Below, one piece after another: positions 15,001 to 33,000 of a DNA stretch of 64,000 bases. The stretch comes from Gammaproteobacteria bacterium (GTDB lineage: Bacteria > Pseudomonadota > Gammaproteobacteria > UBA1113): NCBI GenBank assembly GCA_020051155.1, contig JAGVJK010000001.1, positions 18,605 to 82,604 on the forward strand, written 5' to 3'. The first letter of the stretch is position 1, and each line of letters opens with the position of its first letter. Made by a program: the position numbers.

Positions 15001-18000
15001 ACAAAGAAAATCTATCCAGAAATCATTAGAGGAAGAGAGTTAAAAATATAACTAAATTTTTTATCGAAATTACTCTTCACCACGACTGGATTGCAATCCA
15101 GCCGTGGTAGTTTTGTACTTTTTCATACATACAAATACCAACAACCCCATACCATACAATACTGCTCCAAGAATAAAAGGAATTGTTTTATCAATTTGTG
15201 CGATGCTGCCTGTGATGAAGATAGAGAGTCCCATGATACCAACCCACGTCGCGCTAAAAATTCCCATAATCCATCCTTGCTTGTCTGCACTAACCTGAGA
15301 AGAAAAAGCTTTTATTGTAAAAAGAAAACCAATTCCCACACCCATGCCGGCAATGATCGCAAACAGATAATGTAAAGCAAGCCATAATGTCCACTGGCTT
15401 ATTAAAAATATCACCGCTACGATTGACCAACCCAGAATAACACCTTGTTGCACACTTAAACGGTTTTCTAAAAAACTGGGAAGAATTGCCATGCCAATAG
15501 AAGCGCCGAGACCATACATAGACATGTAAGTTCCTACGACCCAGCTCTGCGCATTTAATACAGTGACTAAATAGATACTCATATAGAAATAATAAATAGA
15601 CCAACTGCCAAAAAATCCGAGGGACGCCAGTAATAAAATGCGAATATTTTTCTGAGACCAAGCCTCTTTAAATATTCTTAGCACTCGCAAAACATGCACT
15701 CGTTGTGGATTAGATGGCTGAGTATCTTGATAAAATAACCATAAAATCGCCATACTCATTAAAGACAATAATGCCACACCTAAAAAGGGCGTTTGATCTT
15801 GAAATAAAAAATAAAAACTAGAATCACTGAATAATTGTCCATAGAGAGGACCTAAAATTGCACCTAATGTCACAGCTAACAAAACAAAACCTGTATTGCG
15901 AACTTGATTTTCTTCTCCACTTAAGTCAAAAATAGCAGCCTGGGCGATGGCTTGGCTACCCGCAGTAAAGCCAATCACCATACGACCGAGGATAATCAAC
16001 CAGATATGACTCAACCAAAAAGCAATAGCAGTTAAAAGATTTCCGATCAACATGCCTAAGATACAAATCAACAAGCCTTGTTTACGTCCTTTGGCATCGG
16101 ATAAGTCGCCTAAGATCGCAGCACCTATCATCCAACACAGAAAAAAGATCCCCACGATGAATCCGTATAATGTTTCTCGACCACTGGCAGACAGGGTTGA
16201 TACCAGACCATCATGATTTAATATCAACGCTCGTGTCAGAATGGGGAAAATTAAACTTTGTCCGAATCCATCTAAAAACAAAATTAAGAAAAGAGAAAAA
16301 AAAACCATCTTCTGTTTCATTATTTATATCCTTATTCTTTAGTGAGTCATGAAAATACTTTCATGTTCGAGCGTCGTTGTCTGTCTTTTTTCGGCGTCTA
16401 ACAATAGGTTTAGTGCTGTCGCAATGTGCTGCACACCCGGTCGTTGTAAAAGACTGATATGATCGCCCGCGATGAGAGTACTCTGGATCTTTTTATTGAT
16501 TTGTTGTTGCCAACCATTATCTGGCAAGTCACCATGCTCTTTATGAAATTGATCAAGCATGCTTGCTTTAAATAAATGCATCGAGAGCGAAGATGGTGCA
16601 TTTTGGGGTTTATAATGTAACAACAGTGTCATCAGTTGCCATCTAGCCCGCAGAATTTTCTGTATGGTTTCTTCATCTTCGATATGTCGTAAAGCTTCTG
16701 TCTCTGTCTCTATTTCATTGAGCATTTGTTCTTCCATGTAAGCCTTAAATATCGATTCATCGTGATTTTTCTTAGAGAAAATTGCCCATGAGTCGAACAT
16801 AGCTACAAATCGAACTTTATCTCCTTGTTGTATTAATTGGCATGCAATTTCATAGGCGATGGTTCCGCCAAGGGATGCGCCCATCAAGATGTAAGGTCCA
16901 ACAGGTTGAACCTTTTTTATTTCCTTTAAATAATCACTCGCCAAATCTTCTAGGGATTTTCGTTCAATTAATTGGTCATGATCTAAATTGATATTTTGAA
17001 TACCATAGTAATTGTATTGTGATTGCAACTGTTCAAGAAGCTCACGATACATGATCAAGGTGCCTCCTACAGGATGAATGAAAAAAACTGACTCTTTTTC
17101 TCGTTGATTTATTTTCATGGGAACCATACAAGAGATTTTCTTGTTTTTTGCAACTAATTGGGCCAATGACGCCACGGTAGAATGAATCACTAAATCAGAA
17201 ATACTCACTTGGAGTTGTTGCTTTTTTAATTGACTGACTAGCTGCACAGCCGTTAGAGATGAACCACCTAAATCAAAAAAACTATCTTGTTTACTAAACT
17301 GATGGATGCCTAAAATGTCTGAAAATAATATTGCTATATTATTTTCAATCTCAGAGCAAGAGACATCTGTTAAAGTGTGTTTCCTTGTTTGTGAAAAATT
17401 TTCTATTTTATTTTTATGATTAAATAAAGTTTCTTTAAACGCAGCTAAATCAAATTTAGACACCAGGCATTGTCCAGACACACCTTGATTCAGCAATTGA
17501 TAAAACAAGGCTGCACCTTCTGCATTAGACACACCATTTAAATACTCCATTGAGTTTTTATCACGACTTACCAACTGCTGAGTAAGAGCAACCCCCATCC
17601 CGGCATCATTCCAACGTGGCCAATTAATTGCAAGCAATTGCTCAATCTGAGGATAATCATTGGATGCACTTAACACATCTAAGTAAGCATTAGCTGCAGA
17701 GTAGGCCGAGGTTCCAATCACGCCTAACCAAGTGGTTAGAGAGGACATCATGGCAAAATAGCGCAGAGGCTCAGCTTGCAATGCATTTAATAAAGACTGA
17801 GTTCCTTGTATTTTTGGCGCTAAGATTGCCGGTATCTCTGCCATGGATTGTTCCATGATGCCGCGTGGTGGTACCCCAGCTGCATGAATCACACCATGAA
17901 TTCTGCCGTATTTTGTTTTAATTTTTTTTACAAATGCATCCGTTGCAGCAAAATCAGTAATATCGAGACAAGCCAGCTCTACCTTGCAACTGGTTTGACG

Positions 18001-30000: not shown

Positions 30001-33000
30001 AACACGAGAAGCGATCACTCAACTGAATTTCCATTGAATCTAAAAAACTTTTATTATCATCCACCAACACTATTTTGGTCGGGTGGTAACACACACTGAT
30101 CATCTTAAGACTCCCTTAAATAATTAGCTTTCTTTCGTTTTATTTTTTTTCGGAAAACACAATTTAAACAAAGTATAGTCGTTTACCCTAGACTTGCAGC
30201 TGATATCTCCTTTCAAAGATTTCATGACTAGCTTACTGAAAGATAATCCAACACCGGCTCCATGACGAGTCCTTGTAAAAAATCGTTCAAAGATATGCGG
30301 CAAGTCTTGTTGAGCAATTCCCATCCCAGTGTCCTTAAAATAAAGAAGATTATAAGGACTGCTTTTTTCTATCCAGATATAAATAGAACCTTTCCCTGCT
30401 TTCTCAACATAATACAGTGCATTTCTAATGAGATTAAATAGCACATAGATCAACAGTATTTTTTTCCCTGCTACCAGAAAATCATTATTTTCAGTATTAT
30501 TCCAACGAATCATCTCTCGTTGTTCCGCTCTAAAGGGATAGCGTGCTAAAGCTTCATCAACACATTCTGCCATGGAAAATATTTCCCCTTCATTGCCTAA
30601 GGCAGGATTGATGCTCATCAGCAACATGTCAATCACATTAGACGCCGCATTGGTTTCAACCTCTATGAGTGCTGGTTGCTGTTCTAGTTTTGCAAAAACG
30701 TTTTGTCGAATATCTCCCACGGGTAATCCCGCTTGTTTTGCTTCACGATAAGCATCAAATAAAATTGGGTAGTATTTTTTAAGATTCAGTGCAACGGTAT
30801 TGATCGTGGCTAAGGGTGTACGAATTTCGTGAGCCATACTTGCAGAAACTAACGCCATGGCTTCTAGTTGTTTTTCTTTTTGTGTGATCTCTCGGTTTCT
30901 AACAAACAGCACGCTAAAAAACACAATAGAAATATAACTAAACGCAACTAGATAATAGTTTTTGGGTTGTGGTAATGCTCCATCGAGAACATAAAAAGAG
31001 AGACAGGCTAAGGTAACACCCACTACTAATATGATAAGCATGGGAACAATATCTAACAATAGCACCATCAGCACCAGCATTGTCATGGCATTCAAAATCC
31101 ATAGGTTCGAAAAACCATGTTTTAATAAAAAAAATGTCACGAAAAATGGCAGAGAATAGAGAATCGTAAGATACCAAAATAGTGGGAAAAACTTAAGACA
31201 CTTCTTTGGCCAATAGGGTTTTAAAATAAGTAATGCGCACAAAACAATAATCACTGAGCGCATTCCTGAGTTTTCATACCCCTGAGGATTCAATACAACC
31301 CAGATAATATAGTAAAAAGCGTAAGTCACTACCCCAAATATACCGAAGATCACCGCTAATTTTTCAGCACGCTCTGCGTCCTGATTTATTCTCTGGAGCG
31401 CTATATTTGCAATCTTCCTGATCGAATTTAATATCTGCATGTCCATATCCTTAACACTAAGAATTCCATTCTACCTATGTTTTTGAGGAATGGTAAGCTT
31501 TTACTATCATTGCTTTGATTTTAAGCGAACCTCCTACCGCCCGCACCGATGCGGGTGCGATTGAAAGTGTCGGTTGAAATATTCCTTCCCATCAATTGTT
31601 ATTTCCATTCTCTACGCTGTCATCCCCGCGCAGGCGGGGACCCATTTTCATAGCAGCTCAGGAGCCCGTACAAAAATGGGTCCCCGCCTGCGCGGGGATG
31701 ACAACATGGAGGTGTCGCAGGGCACACAATATTTCAACCGACACTTTCAATCGCACCCAATCTTAATCCGCTTGGGGTGCAGAATACAAAAATCGATTGC
31801 ACAAGCTCTTTGCTGTCTTTACAATAAGGCGATGAAAAATATACCTGCTAAAACTGTGGCAATCATTGGTGCTGGACGTCTCGGGAAAACCTTGGCGCGT
31901 CTTGTTGTGTCTGCTTCGGATTATAGCCTTAGTGGTCTTTATACTCGTTCTGCCAGCCCACAGATTGGCGAAGTCTTAACTGACACGAGCATATTGATCC
32001 AATCATCTGAACATATGCAACCTGCCGATATTTATCTGATCACAACACCCGATGATCAAATTGCTGCAGCTTGTGACATGCTCTGTCATTCTTCTTACTT
32101 ACAACCTGGCAATATCATTTTACATTGCAGTGGATTACACACCGCCGCTATTTTACAATCCGCAAAAAATCACGGTTGTTATACCGCTAGTATTCATCCT
32201 TTACGTAGCTTTGCTGATCCTCTTCAATCCTATCAAGCCTTTCCCGGAACGTATTGCGCCCTGGAGGGCGACGAAGCTGGCTTATTAGAAACACGAAAAT
32301 TATTTGAAAGCTTCGGCGGTATTGTTTTTTCTATTGCCTCTGATGAGAAAGCACTGTATCACGCGGCCTCTGTCTTTGCGTCAAATTACACCGTCACTCT
32401 GTATGCAGTGGCAACACAATTATTACAAGATGCGCAAGTCTCTCCAGAGATTGCCAGCGCCATGACACAAAACTTAATGCAAGGCACTCTCAATAATCTT
32501 GCTTATCACACTGACCCAGCACAGGCTTTAACGGGCCCTATTCTTCGCGGCGATGAACAAACACTTCGCGCTCATTTAAAAAGTTTACAACCAGCGACGT
32601 TAAAACAACTGTATGCTATCTTAGGTGAGCATACACTGGATCTCACCAAATTATCTCCTGAAAAAAAATCTGCTATTCAACGAATCTTATCCAGTTAAAT
32701 ACACATCTGCCGTAAAGGAACTGCTGGTCCGGCATTTTCACCGATTGTATTCTCTTTTTCAAAAAATTTGACCATACATAAGCACTGTACTAAATTAGCA
32801 AAGAAGATACTTAGCATGACGCCAAATTCGCTTATCCGTGCGAAAAAAACGTGATTTCCTGTGGGGAGCGGATTACCGATAATTGAGGTTAAAGATGAAT
32901 GATAATCTTCATCATCTAACCCCTGCTCTTCTTCTAATACTGTTTTGCAAACATCCACGACATCTGTCACCGTTATTTCTTGAGAAGCGTGAAAGAATTT

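What the first reader, a model, noticed from the sequence alone, without database searches (positions are those of the whole stretch)
15070..31446. 11.5-kb single-gene NRPS-PKS hybrid embedded in a co-directional array with an MFS exporter, thiL and an orphan two-component pair
Domain order C-A-T-C-A-T-KS-AT-KR-ACP-TE predicts an N-capped or N-acylated dipeptide, because the N-terminal C domain has an intact HHxxxDG and no preceding module, which is starter-C-like. That dipeptide is extended by one malonate, whose beta-keto group is reduced by an active KR (YSAAN), and released by a TE, possibly by lactonisation onto the new 3-OH or a Ser OH. No PPTase, MbtH-like protein or acyl-ligase gene is adjacent; the only FAAL-like gene is 27 kb away at the window start. 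All seven genes from the histidine kinase at 31446 to the MFS at 15070 are on the minus strand with short gaps. This suggests the two-component system controls production of the metabolite.
Basis: partly seen in the sequence, partly recalled or inferred. Interest (0 to 1): 0.75.

Follow-up and report, generated by a model that had tools for sequence, protein, structure and literature searches.

The report
Orphan Legionella NRPS-PKS plus exporter
An intact 11.5-kb gene for a peptide-polyketide assembly line, followed by its likely export pump, sits in a Legionella-type chromosome; it is a real but uncharacterised small-molecule pathway of a familiar kind, and the neighbouring sensor/regulator pair and thiL are probably just neighbours.

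Summary
The giant ORF is real. It runs 16339-27873 on the minus strand, starts at ATG and encodes 3844 aa.

- **Domains.** The order C-A-T-C-A-T-KS-AT-KR-ACP-TE is confirmed, every catalytic motif is intact and there is no DH. Against an 85%-identical relative, dN/dS is about 0.10 overall and 0.03-0.14 in each comparable domain (C1 to part of AT), so it is not a pseudogene.
- **Substrates.** A1 carries a serine code. A2 carries a conserved code I could not assign (DVSY[VI]AYIYK).
- **Family.** Same-architecture homologues (43-50% identity) in Legionella anisa and in a metagenomic contig are also followed directly by an MFS gene, but their flanks differ. The conserved unit is therefore a two-gene NRPS-PKS plus MFS cassette.
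- **Neighbours.** The block holds five genes, not seven. A 247-bp gap holding the region's best promoter-like site separates thiL from the megasynthase. The "orphan" regulator is a full-length LqsR-family protein paired with a multi-TM kinase, and this pair recurs elsewhere without any NRPS.
- **C domains.** C1 is starter-like by position only. By sequence it sits nearer ordinary elongation C domains than the solved lipoinitiation domain. C2's closest solved relative is the McyA C domain that follows a Ser/dehydroalanine module, yet it lacks the dehydrating-C signature.

Likely product: an N-capped Ser-X unit extended to a statine-like 3-hydroxy acid. Verdict: an ordinary orphan cluster with modest curiosities.

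The parts
16339..27873 (-). Hybrid NRPS-PKS gene, 3844 aa counted from ATG 27873. The mechanical ORF call starts at TTG 27879.
   Evidence: dN/dS is 0.096 against the Logan relative L023.
26539..27873 (-). C1, the N-terminal condensation domain (aa 1-445), with HHIVLDG. It belongs to a divergent family found at the N-terminus of Legionella-type NRPSs.
   Evidence: Pfam Condensation, 86 bits. The closest representatives (25-36% identity) all carry it at residues 1-450. PDB profile ranking. dN/dS 0.14.
25024..26505 (-). A1 adenylation domain (aa 457-950). Code DVWHFSLIDK, read as serine.
   Evidence: The code is conserved in L. anisa, P0015 and L023.
24760..24942 (-). T1 carrier domain, motif GGDS.
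23401..24654 (-). C2 condensation domain (aa 1074-1491), with HHAMADG. It is a D-clade domain whose closest solved relative is McyA2-C. It lacks the CmodAA signature.
   Evidence: Signature taken from PMC11342130.
21820..23322 (-). A2 adenylation domain (aa 1518-2018). Code DVSYVAYIYK, substrate unassigned.
   Evidence: No literature hit for the code. PDB comparison uninformative.
21595..21786 (-). T2 carrier domain, motif GGNS.
20401..21534 (-). KS domain with a Cys-His-His triad (TACSTS, HGTGT, NIGH).
19063..19950 (-). AT domain with GHSIG and an HGFH malonyl-type motif.
17608..18675 (-). KR domain (structural plus catalytic subdomains). NADPH motif GGLGGMA; catalytic K, S, Y (AYSAAN) and N; no LDD motif. 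No DH precedes it.
17149..17346 (-). ACP domain, motif GGSS.
16417..17088 (-). Type I thioesterase with GASLG and GDH motifs.
15070..16320 (-). DHA1-type MFS transporter, 18 bp downstream of the megasynthase. It is the conserved partner of the megasynthase in all four family members seen.
28073..28100 (-). Sigma-70-like site TTGACA-16-TATGAT (11 of 12 matches) in the 247-bp thiL/NRPS-PKS gap. Candidate promoter for the cassette itself.
   Evidence: Best match in 14900-31700, although the total number of matches is no higher than in shuffles. Sequence shown.
28127..29083 (-). thiL, thiamine-phosphate kinase. A neighbour, not part of the pathway.
   Evidence: TIGR01379 scores 267 bits against a cut-off of 184.
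29093..30103 (-). LqsR-family response regulator (acceptor Asp98). A neighbour.
   Evidence: Full-length match to PDB 6sy9, E 2e-58. Asp108 of LqsR is described in PMC5289986.
30124..31446 (-). Membrane histidine kinase with about 5-6 N-terminal TM helices and an H-box His206. It is the conserved partner of the LqsR-like regulator.
   Evidence: 48% identical to the kinase next to an LqsR-like gene in L028.

Best explanation
This is a self-contained two-gene biosynthetic cassette in the chromosome of a Legionella-type bacterium. It consists of one trimodular NRPS-PKS megasynthase and a DHA1-type MFS exporter.

Shown here:
- The gene is intact and under purifying selection in every comparable domain (C1 to part of AT).
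- Its architecture is C-A(Ser)-T-C-A(X)-T-KS-AT(malonyl-type)-KR-ACP-TE, with no DH.
- Three further family members have the same architecture and the same A-domain codes, and each is followed directly by the MFS gene.

Inferred mechanism:
1. The carrier domains are primed by the genome's single Sfp-type PPTase.
2. C1, which has no upstream module, caps Ser-S-T1 with an acyl group. The donor is most likely a fatty or short acyl-CoA or acyl-ACP made elsewhere.
3. C2 joins the capped Ser to the unknown amino acid X.
4. KS and AT add one malonate.
5. KR reduces the beta-keto group, giving a statine-like gamma-amino-beta-hydroxy acid terminus.
6. TE releases the chain, either by hydrolysis or by cyclisation. 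Attack by the Ser hydroxyl would give a 9-membered lactone.
7. The MFS exports the product.

The cassette is probably transcribed from its own promoter in the 247-bp gap. Its position next to thiL and the LqsR-type two-component pair is specific to this lineage and not functional.
For: - **Intact ORF and domain order:**
- **All catalytic motifs present:**. They are conserved in L. anisa, P0015 and L023.
- **No DH:**
- **Purifying selection:** dN/dS is 0.096 over 2921 codons and 0.03-0.14 in each domain covered by the L023 contig, C1 included.
- **Conserved A codes:** A1 is DVWHFSL[IV]DK and A2 is DVSY[VI]AYIYK across homologues that are 43-50% identical.
- **MFS linkage:** the MFS follows at 18 bp here, follows in L. 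anisa (55% identity), and overlaps the megasynthase stop by 4 bp in L027.
- **Different flanks:** DAHP synthase and grpE-dnaK-dnaJ in L. anisa; glyA-nrdR-nusB-pgpA in L027; HK-RR-thiL only here and in the 85%-identical L023.
- **Own promoter:** the best promoter-like site lies in the gap.
- **Priming:** Legionella has a single Sfp-type PPTase (PMC5126622).
- **Precedent for the logic:** in the thalassospiramide assembly lines a starter C makes fatty-acyl-Ser and an NRPS-PKS extension makes a statine-like residue (bioRxiv 10.1101/560987).
Against: - No chemistry or expression data exist for this cluster.
- By sequence C1 is no closer to the solved lipoinitiation C domain (RzmA, 44 bits) than to elongation C domains (97-125 bits). 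The acyl cap is therefore inferred from position alone.
- The A2 substrate is unknown.
- C2's nearest solved relative follows a Ser-to-dehydroalanine module, so the Ser may not survive as Ser.
- MFS orthologues at 53% identity also occur without any NRPS, so the MFS link rests on four loci.
- In L. anisa the gene is split after the KS.
- Promoter-like matches across the region are no more frequent than in shuffled sequence.
Confidence: 0.6

Rival explanations
1. The adjacent LqsS/T-like kinase and LqsR-like regulator control the cassette. In the stronger form, the metabolite is the signal this Lqs-type pair senses, standing in for the missing LqsA synthase.
For: - All five genes are co-directional.
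- The regulator is a full-length LqsR-family protein.
- The kinase has a membrane-embedded sensor with no periplasmic domain.
- No LqsA-type aminotransferase is present among the window ORFs of at least 90 aa that I scanned.
- The arrangement is kept in the Logan relative L023.
Against: - Homologous cassettes in L. anisa and L027 have no two-component genes within 10 kb.
- Homologous HK/LqsR-like pairs in L024, L028 and L029 have no NRPS or thiL nearby.
- A housekeeping thiL and a 247-bp gap with a strong promoter-like site separate the pair from the megasynthase.
- L023 is too closely related (85% identity) to count as independent conservation.
- LqsR paralogues outside the canonical locus are reported to lie in non-conserved regions (PMC8023197).
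Confidence: 0.12
2. C2 is a modifying (CmodAA-type) condensation domain that dehydrates the upstream Ser to dehydroalanine. The product would then be an N-capped Dha-X-hydroxy acid, an electrophile, and no Ser-OH lactone could form.
For: - By a wide margin, C2's best solved relative is the C domain of McyA module 2: 160 bits, against 97 for the next hit.
- That McyA domain sits directly after the Ser-derived Mdha module.
- AmbE-CmodAA is also among the top three hits.
- A1 activates Ser, the usual CmodAA donor.
- The corallorazine NRPS has the same Cstarter-A(Ser)-T-CmodAA-A layout (PMC11342130).
Against: - The [K/R]SVLLAAH signature is absent. In the published set K/R is present in 50 of 50 CmodAA domains and H in 48 of 50.
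- This family has D where K/R should be and Y or F where H should be (D[CIA]V[FL][ILM][SA][LA][YF]).
- The Arg pair at motif C6, of which every CmodAA domain has at least one, is replaced by K-[SIQA].
- The aromatic residue at the H position resembles ordinary DCL domains.
Confidence: 0.2
3. C1 is an ordinary elongation C domain that receives an aminoacyl or peptidyl donor from a separately encoded loading module elsewhere in the genome. The cassette would then be only part of a fragmented assembly line, and the product would be longer than predicted.
For: - The C1 family profile scores LCL/DCL elongation domains far above the solved starter C.
- Legionella assembly lines are described as highly fragmented, with stand-alone domains (PMC5640695).
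- Stand-alone relatives of C1 exist, such as the 467-aa protein P0028.
- An ACP plus FAAL-like gene lies 27 kb away.
Against: - None of the three independent contexts has an A-T or NRPS gene within 10 kb.
- No docking-type N-terminal extension is present, because C1 starts at about residue 10.
- The ACP-FAAL gene, if involved, would supply an acyl donor rather than an aminoacyl one, which agrees with the best explanation.
Confidence: 0.12
4. The gene is a decaying, non-functional relic.
For: The L. anisa homologue is interrupted by a stop codon directly after the KS.
Against: - The 3844 codons are uninterrupted.
- All active-site motifs are intact.
- dN/dS is 0.03-0.14 in each of the nine comparable domains.
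- In L. anisa the downstream part restarts with an ATG 13 nt after the stop, and its motifs are kept.
Confidence: 0.03

Closest known systems
Predicted, uncharacterised NRPS/PKS hybrid clusters of Legionella (surveys PMC5126622 and PMC5640695). The L. anisa WA-316-C3 homologue is L001.
   Same: - Same genus-level host type.
- Same length and domain order, same A-domain codes, and the same downstream MFS. Overall identity is 49%.
- Both rely on the single Sfp-type PPTase.
   Different: - In L. anisa the gene is split after the KS and sits between a DAHP synthase gene and grpE-dnaK-dnaJ.
- No product is known for either.
Syrbactin synthetases: GlbF/GlbC/GlbD of glidobactin and SylC/SylD/SylE of syringolin.
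   Same: - GlbC is a hybrid NRPS-PKS ending in a TE.
- A transporter gene lies in the cluster.
- The N-acyl cap comes from a starter module (PMC8248439). That GlbC has two NRPS modules plus one PKS module, and that SylE is an MFS exporter, is from my own memory.
   Different: - Here there is no DH, so no alpha,beta-unsaturated warhead.
- The first A domain has a Ser code, not Lys.
- There is no separate starter NRPS, no lysine hydroxylase or desaturase, and no MbtH.
- There are only two amino acids, so the 12-membered macrolactam cannot form.
Thalassospiramide assembly lines (Ttc/Ttm).
   Same: A starter C makes fatty-acyl-Ser, NRPS-to-PKS extension with ketoreduction gives a statine-like residue, and a TE releases a lipodepsipeptide.
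   Different: Those lines are much larger and multi-protein, with module skipping and iteration, a DH and a trans-AT. No sequence comparison was made here, so the resemblance is one of logic only.
Corallorazine NRPS Crz1 (Cstarter-A(Ser)-T-CmodAA-A...).
   Same: The NRPS half has the same layout: an N-terminal C, a Ser-activating A, and then a C domain of the D-clade/CmodAA neighbourhood.
   Different: - Crz1-C2 carries the [K/R]SVLLAAH and RR signatures, which this C2 lacks.
- Crz ends in a reductase, with no PKS module.
Legionella Lqs quorum-sensing system (lqsA-lqsR-hdeD-lqsS, plus the orphan lqsT). This comparison concerns the neighbouring pair only.
   Same: - The regulator aligns over its full length with the solved LqsR-type structure 6sy9 and keeps the acceptor Asp.
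- The kinase has a multi-TM sensor and an H-box His near residue 206. LqsS has His200 and LqsT has His204.
   Different: - There is no lqsA or hdeD here.
- The gene order is HK then RR.
- The locus is not between the cytochrome c5 gene and hemC, where the canonical cluster lies.
- The pair belongs with the 'non-conserved region' LqsR paralogues.

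Membership tests
Modular type I NRPS-PKS hybrid | C (HHxxxDG), A (cores A3-A10), a carrier Ser in each T/ACP, KS Cys-His-His, AT GHSxG, KR NADPH motif plus catalytic Tyr, and TE GxSxG/His, all in one reading frame. | tested here: met
Starter (lipoinitiation) condensation domains | Closer in sequence to known starter C domains than to elongation C domains. 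| tested here: not met
   The C1-family profile scores RzmA-Cs (7c1h/7c1k) at 44 bits. It scores BacC, Txo2, TycC6 and LgrA C domains at 97-125 bits. No curated subtype HMMs or phylogeny were available, so this is a weak test.
Starter (lipoinitiation) condensation domains | First domain of the assembly line, with no upstream module or carrier protein in the cluster. | tested here: met
   C1 starts at about residue 10. No NRPS or carrier gene lies within 10 kb in the window, in L. anisa or in L027. The closest relatives all carry the domain at residues 1-450.
Starter (lipoinitiation) condensation domains | Transfers an acyl-CoA or acyl-ACP onto the first amino acid. | not testable with these tools
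   This needs an in-vitro assay of C1-A1-T1.
CmodAA (dehydrating/modifying) condensation domains | The [K/R]SVLLAAH helix before motif C5. In the published set K/R is present in 50 of 50 domains and H in 48 of 50 (PMC11342130). | tested here: not met
   C2 has DCVFISLY at that position. D and Y/F are conserved in all four family members.
CmodAA (dehydrating/modifying) condensation domains | At least one Arg at the start of motif C6. | tested here: not met
   The family has K-S, K-I, K-Q or K-A where McyA and AmbE have R-R.
CmodAA (dehydrating/modifying) condensation domains | Follows a Ser/Thr module and is most similar to known CmodAA domains. | tested here: met
   A1 has a Ser code. The best PDB hit is McyA2-C at 160 bits, and AmbE-CmodAA scores 95 bits.
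Dual E/C condensation domains | An extra N-terminal HH[I/L]xxxxGD motif. This feature is recalled from memory (Balibar 2005). | tested here: not met
   A regular-expression search found no such motif anywhere in the protein.
Syrbactin synthetases (SylD/GlbC type) | A DH in the PKS module, a Lys-activating first A domain, and a separate acylating NRPS (GlbF/SylC). | tested here: not met
   There is no DH, A1 has a Ser code, and no second NRPS gene is present.
LqsR-family response regulators (the neighbour) | Full-length similarity to LqsR, covering the receiver with its acceptor Asp and the LqsR-specific C-terminal domain. | tested here: met
   Residues 2-330 align to 26-357 of 6sy9 with E 2e-58. 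Asp98 aligns with chain Asp128. That 6sy9 is L. pneumophila LqsR is from my memory. The 20-residue tag offset to Asp108 is consistent.
Canonical lqs quorum-sensing cluster | lqsA autoinducer synthase adjacent, and a locus between the cytochrome c5 gene and hemC. | tested here: not met
   No aminotransferase-class gene lies near the pair. The flanks are thiL and a DUF2520 gene.
ThiL | Score above the curated cut-off of the equivalog model TIGR01379. | tested here: met
   267 bits against a cut-off of 184.

The most novel reading that the evidence does not exclude
The cassette makes a small N-acyl Ser/Dha-X-statine-like lipopeptide with a dedicated biological role in an amoeba-associated Legionella. 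One possibility is a transition-state-mimic inhibitor of host aspartic proteases or other hydrolases. Another is a diffusible signal read by the adjacent LqsS/T-LqsR-type pair, in a genome region that lacks LqsA. Under this reading the Legionella-specific N-terminal C family and the McyA-like C2 that lacks the dehydration residues would represent undescribed functional subtypes of condensation domain.
Probability: 0.07. Interest if true: 0.7.

Novelty: new member of a known kind. Interest (0 to 1): 0.33.

Why it matters
Legionella natural products are almost unexplored. The Legionella natural-product papers I read here describe legionellol (PMC5640695) and mention legioliulin (PMC5126622).

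This cassette is compact: two genes, about 12.8 kb, with no accessory genes needed apart from a PPTase. That makes it an unusually easy target for heterologous expression.

It would also give a substrate assignment for a conserved, unassigned A-domain code. It would give functional data for two atypical condensation-domain lineages.

For annotation practice, it shows that co-directional neighbours should not be folded into a cluster without a synteny check. Here those neighbours are a quorum-sensing-type two-component pair and thiL.

Tried and rejected
- **Exact-sequence look-ups.** Look-ups of window proteins in the contig index found nothing. The source species was therefore not named. Cluster look-up shows only an NCBI/JGI contig of 108,088 bp with generic product names.
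- **Protein searches.** A full-length search timed out. A word-index search with C1 returned nothing.
- **A2 code.** A literature search for the A2 code gave no paper.
- **PDB comparisons.** A2 matched only generic A domains, giving no specificity clue. The TE matched only generic type I TEs, giving no hint of release mode.
- **Rfam.** A scan of the whole window found only two tRNAs, with no riboswitch or leader in the thiL/NRPS gap.
- **Mobility.** There are no tRNAs, IS elements or long direct repeats at the cassette borders, and no GC deviation (38% against 40% for the window). A recent island insertion is therefore not demonstrable.
- **MFS as a marker.** This was rejected, because 53%-identical MFS genes occur without any NRPS.
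- **KR stereochemistry.** There is no LDD motif, but the A-type Trp is present only in this window's protein and not in the homologues. I left the type undecided.
- **Syrbactin-like and dual-E/C readings.** Both were rejected on tested features.

Full report

The region contains one uninterrupted minus-strand ORF, 16339..27879. Its translation has no internal stop. The mechanical start is TTG 27879, but an ATG at 27873 sits 8 nt after a GAGAGG ribosome-binding site. The 3844-aa product from that ATG is an exact entry in the public protein collection (NCBI and JGI/IMG, contig 108,088 bp). Its only name there is 'amino acid adenylation domain-containing protein'.

A motif scan shows every catalytic signature:
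- C domains: HHIVLDG and HHAMADG.
- A domains: cores A3-A10 in both.
- Carrier domains: GGDS, GGNS and GGSS.
- KS: TACSTS, HGTGT and NIGH.
- AT: GHSIG with an HGFH malonyl-type motif.
- KR: GGLGGMA, then Lys, Ser, AYSAAN.
- TE: GASLG and GDH.

The 300-aa AT-KR interval matches only the KR structural-subdomain model, even at E<=1. There is therefore no DH.

Two details of the observation are wrong.
- The co-directional block has five genes, not seven: HK, RR, thiL, NRPS-PKS and MFS.
- The spacing is 20, 9, 247 and 18 bp. This makes two tight units, HK-RR-thiL and NRPS/PKS-MFS, separated by a real intergenic region.

**2. Is it functional?**

A Logan metagenome contig (L023) carries an 85%-identical copy in the same context. 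Nei-Gojobori dN/dS over 2921 aligned codons is 0.096. Each of the nine comparable domains (C1 to part of AT) lies between 0.03 (KS) and 0.14 (C1). This excludes a pseudogene and shows that the odd N-terminal C domain is under constraint.

**3. What belongs to it?**

A scan of one genome per species returned a single close full-length relative, in Legionella anisa WA-316-C3 (L001, 49% identity, query residues 7-3832). An exhaustive HMMER search with C1 over 1.8 billion cluster representatives found the window protein itself. It also found one further same-length relative, P0015 (3794 aa, 47-48% identity), from metagenomes.

In all of these the megasynthase is followed directly by an MFS gene:
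- 18 bp away in this window.
- 55% identical MFS in L. anisa.
- A 4-bp overlap in L027.
- Also present in L023, whose 17,754-bp contig also carries P0169, an 81%-identical MFS.

The flanks differ completely between contexts:
- L. anisa: a divergent class II DAHP synthase on one side and grpE-dnaK-dnaJ on the other.
- L027: glyA-nrdR-nusB-pgpA upstream.
- HK-RR-thiL occurs only in the window and its near-identical relative.

The conserved unit is therefore a two-gene cassette.

In two contexts the cassette lies just downstream of a member of the usual nusB-thiL-pgpA operon: thiL here and nusB-pgpA in L027. This hints at an old shared insertion site rather than a functional tie to thiamine. That is inference only.

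The link to the MFS is not absolute. MFS genes 53% identical to this one occur without any NRPS in other Legionellales-type contigs.

**4. The neighbours**

The 318-aa gene is a true thiL (TIGR01379, 267 bits against a cut-off of 184).

The 336-aa 'orphan' regulator aligns over its whole length (2-330) with PDB 6sy9 at E 2e-58. From memory, 6sy9 is L. pneumophila LqsR. The aligned acceptor Asp (Asp98 here, chain residue 128) fits LqsR Asp108 after a 20-residue tag.

The kinase has about five to six N-terminal TM helices, no periplasmic domain, and its H-box His at residue 206. LqsS has His200 and LqsT has His204.

It is not the canonical lqs locus, for three reasons:
- No lqsA or hdeD is present.
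- The gene order differs.
- The canonical cluster lies between a cytochrome c5 gene and hemC (PMC8023197).

[quoted passage not shown] Consistent with this, homologous HK/LqsR-like pairs (HK 48% and RR 43% identical) sit in unrelated contexts with no NRPS or thiL.

The cassette exists without the pair, and the pair exists without the cassette. The best sigma-70-like match of the whole 16.8-kb interval (TTGACA-16-TATGAT) lies in the thiL/NRPS gap. The proposal that the two-component system controls the metabolite therefore has no comparative support. It is not excluded experimentally.

**5. What does the enzyme make?**

I extracted the Stachelhaus positions by anchoring on the A4, A5 and A10 motifs.
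- A1 gives DVWHFSLIDK, the serine code as I recall it.
- A2 gives DVSYVAYIYK.
- Both are conserved in L. anisa, P0015 and L023, apart from V/I swaps.
- The A2 code has no hit in the searchable literature, and its substrate is open. Asp235 and Lys517 argue for an alpha-amino acid.

The AT motif is malonyl-type. The KR has its full catalytic set and no LDD motif. The A-type Trp is present only in this protein and not in the homologues, so I leave the stereochemistry open.

The chain should therefore be cap-Ser-X, extended by one malonate and reduced. This gives a gamma-amino-beta-hydroxy (statine-like) acid, which the TE releases.

The TE resembles generic type I TEs only. Hydrolysis, a 9-membered lactone through Ser-OH, and a beta-lactone all remain possible.

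**6. The two condensation domains are the unusual part**

*C1.* It is a weak Condensation match (86 bits). Its nearest relatives are a coherent family that always lies at residues 1-450 of Legionella-type NRPSs or stands alone. The family shares the motif FHHIILDGTQYD. A profile of this family scores ordinary elongation C domains best: BacC 125, Txo2 118, TycC6 115 and LgrA 97 bits. The solved lipoinitiation domain RzmA-Cs scores only 44 bits. 'Starter' is thus supported by position and context but not by sequence. The nature of the cap is inferred.

*C2.* It is a strong Condensation match (172 bits). Its best solved relative by far is the C domain of McyA module 2 (160 bits; the next hits are a BacC DCL at 97 and AmbE-CmodAA at 95). 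That McyA domain sits directly after the Ser-derived N-methyl-dehydroalanine module. This raised the possibility that Ser is dehydrated to dehydroalanine.

The published CmodAA signature is [K/R]SVLLAAH plus at least one Arg at motif C6 (PMC11342130). Here it is replaced by DCVFISLY and K-S, and the replacement is consistent in all four family members. No dual-E/C motif is present either. I therefore treat dehydration as a minority possibility (about 0.2).

**7. Accessory genes**

No MbtH or PPTase signature exists in any frame of the 64 kb, and no such family appeared in Pfam scans of the window ORFs of at least 90 aa that I scanned. This is expected, because Legionella genomes carry one broad-spectrum Sfp-type PPTase (PMC5126622).

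It is a partial minus-strand ORF at 2-769 with PP-binding plus AMP-binding domains. It is separated from the cassette by arginine-biosynthesis and other housekeeping genes, and it is absent from the other two contexts.

**8. Comparison with known systems and verdict**

The architecture resembles the syrbactin GlbC/GlbD (SylD/SylE) pair. However, it lacks the DH, the Lys-activating domain, the third NRPS module and the accessory genes. It is not a syrbactin cluster.

In logic it resembles the start of the thalassospiramide lines: a starter C making fatty-acyl-Ser, followed by a statine-like residue. It also resembles the NRPS half of the corallorazine synthetase.

Legionella NRPS/PKS hybrids, including ones in L. 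anisa, have already been catalogued bioinformatically without products (PMC5126622, PMC5640695).

The finding is therefore a genuine, intact orphan cluster of a known kind. It has a few specialist curiosities:
- An unassigned but conserved A code.
- A Legionella-specific N-terminal C family.
- A McyA-like C domain without the dehydration residues.
- An LqsR-type pair next door.

The regulatory story attached to it is not supported.

Noticed in passing
window 31553-31758: A nested palindromic element of about 206 nt. It has perfect 31-nt terminal inverted arms (31553-31583 and 31728-31758). Inside are 50-nt arms, 84% complementary, around a GC-rich hairpin. It lies in the divergent intergenic region between the kinase gene and the DUF2520 gene and is the only copy in the window. 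It looks like a MITE or REP-like element. The listed TTG start (31574) of the DUF2520 ORF falls inside it, so the true start is probably further downstream.
   Followed up: partly
window 12517-12561 and 14329-14373: Imperfect 45-nt inverted repeats (76% complementary) flank the HTH-HipA (hipBA-like) toxin-antitoxin pair at 12587-14219. This suggests a small mobile or recombined module next to the cassette.
   Followed up: no
window 2-769 (minus strand): A partial gene cut by the window edge. It has an N-terminal PP-binding (ACP) domain followed by the start of a FAAL-like AMP-binding domain. It could be an acyl-loading enzyme for some lipid or lipopeptide pathway.
   Followed up: partly
window 2034-9327: A run of arginine regulation and biosynthesis genes: argR, argB, argJ and argC on the minus strand, and argF, argG and argH on the plus strand. 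From memory, L. pneumophila is an arginine auxotroph, so this is worth noting.
   Followed up: no
window 58711-61503 (minus) and about 61400-64000 (plus, runs off the end): Two very large ankyrin-repeat proteins, typical of Legionella-type eukaryote-like effectors.
   Followed up: no
L001 17547-17640 (L. anisa): The L. anisa homologue is interrupted by a stop codon directly after the KS. It restarts at an ATG 13 nt downstream, at the beginning of the KS-AT linker. This is either a natural split into two proteins or a recent nonsense or frameshift lesion.
   Followed up: partly
L024, L028, L029 (metagenomic contigs): HK/LqsR-like pairs elsewhere are followed by a conserved trio of genes: an unknown gene of 219-237 aa on the opposite strand, a small GerE/LuxR-type HTH gene, and a stand-alone receiver gene of 155-163 aa. 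This may be a larger conserved signalling module.
   Followed up: no
window 27988-28008 (minus strand): A six-codon mini-ORF (MSITHQ*) lies in the thiL/NRPS gap, downstream of the promoter-like site. A small hairpin follows at 27944-27963. No Rfam family matches here.
   Followed up: no
window 29083-29093: thiL starts only 9 bp after the LqsR-like gene. A housekeeping thiamine gene therefore appears to be co-transcribed with a quorum-sensing-type two-component pair, instead of sitting in the usual nusB-thiL-pgpA operon.
   Followed up: partly
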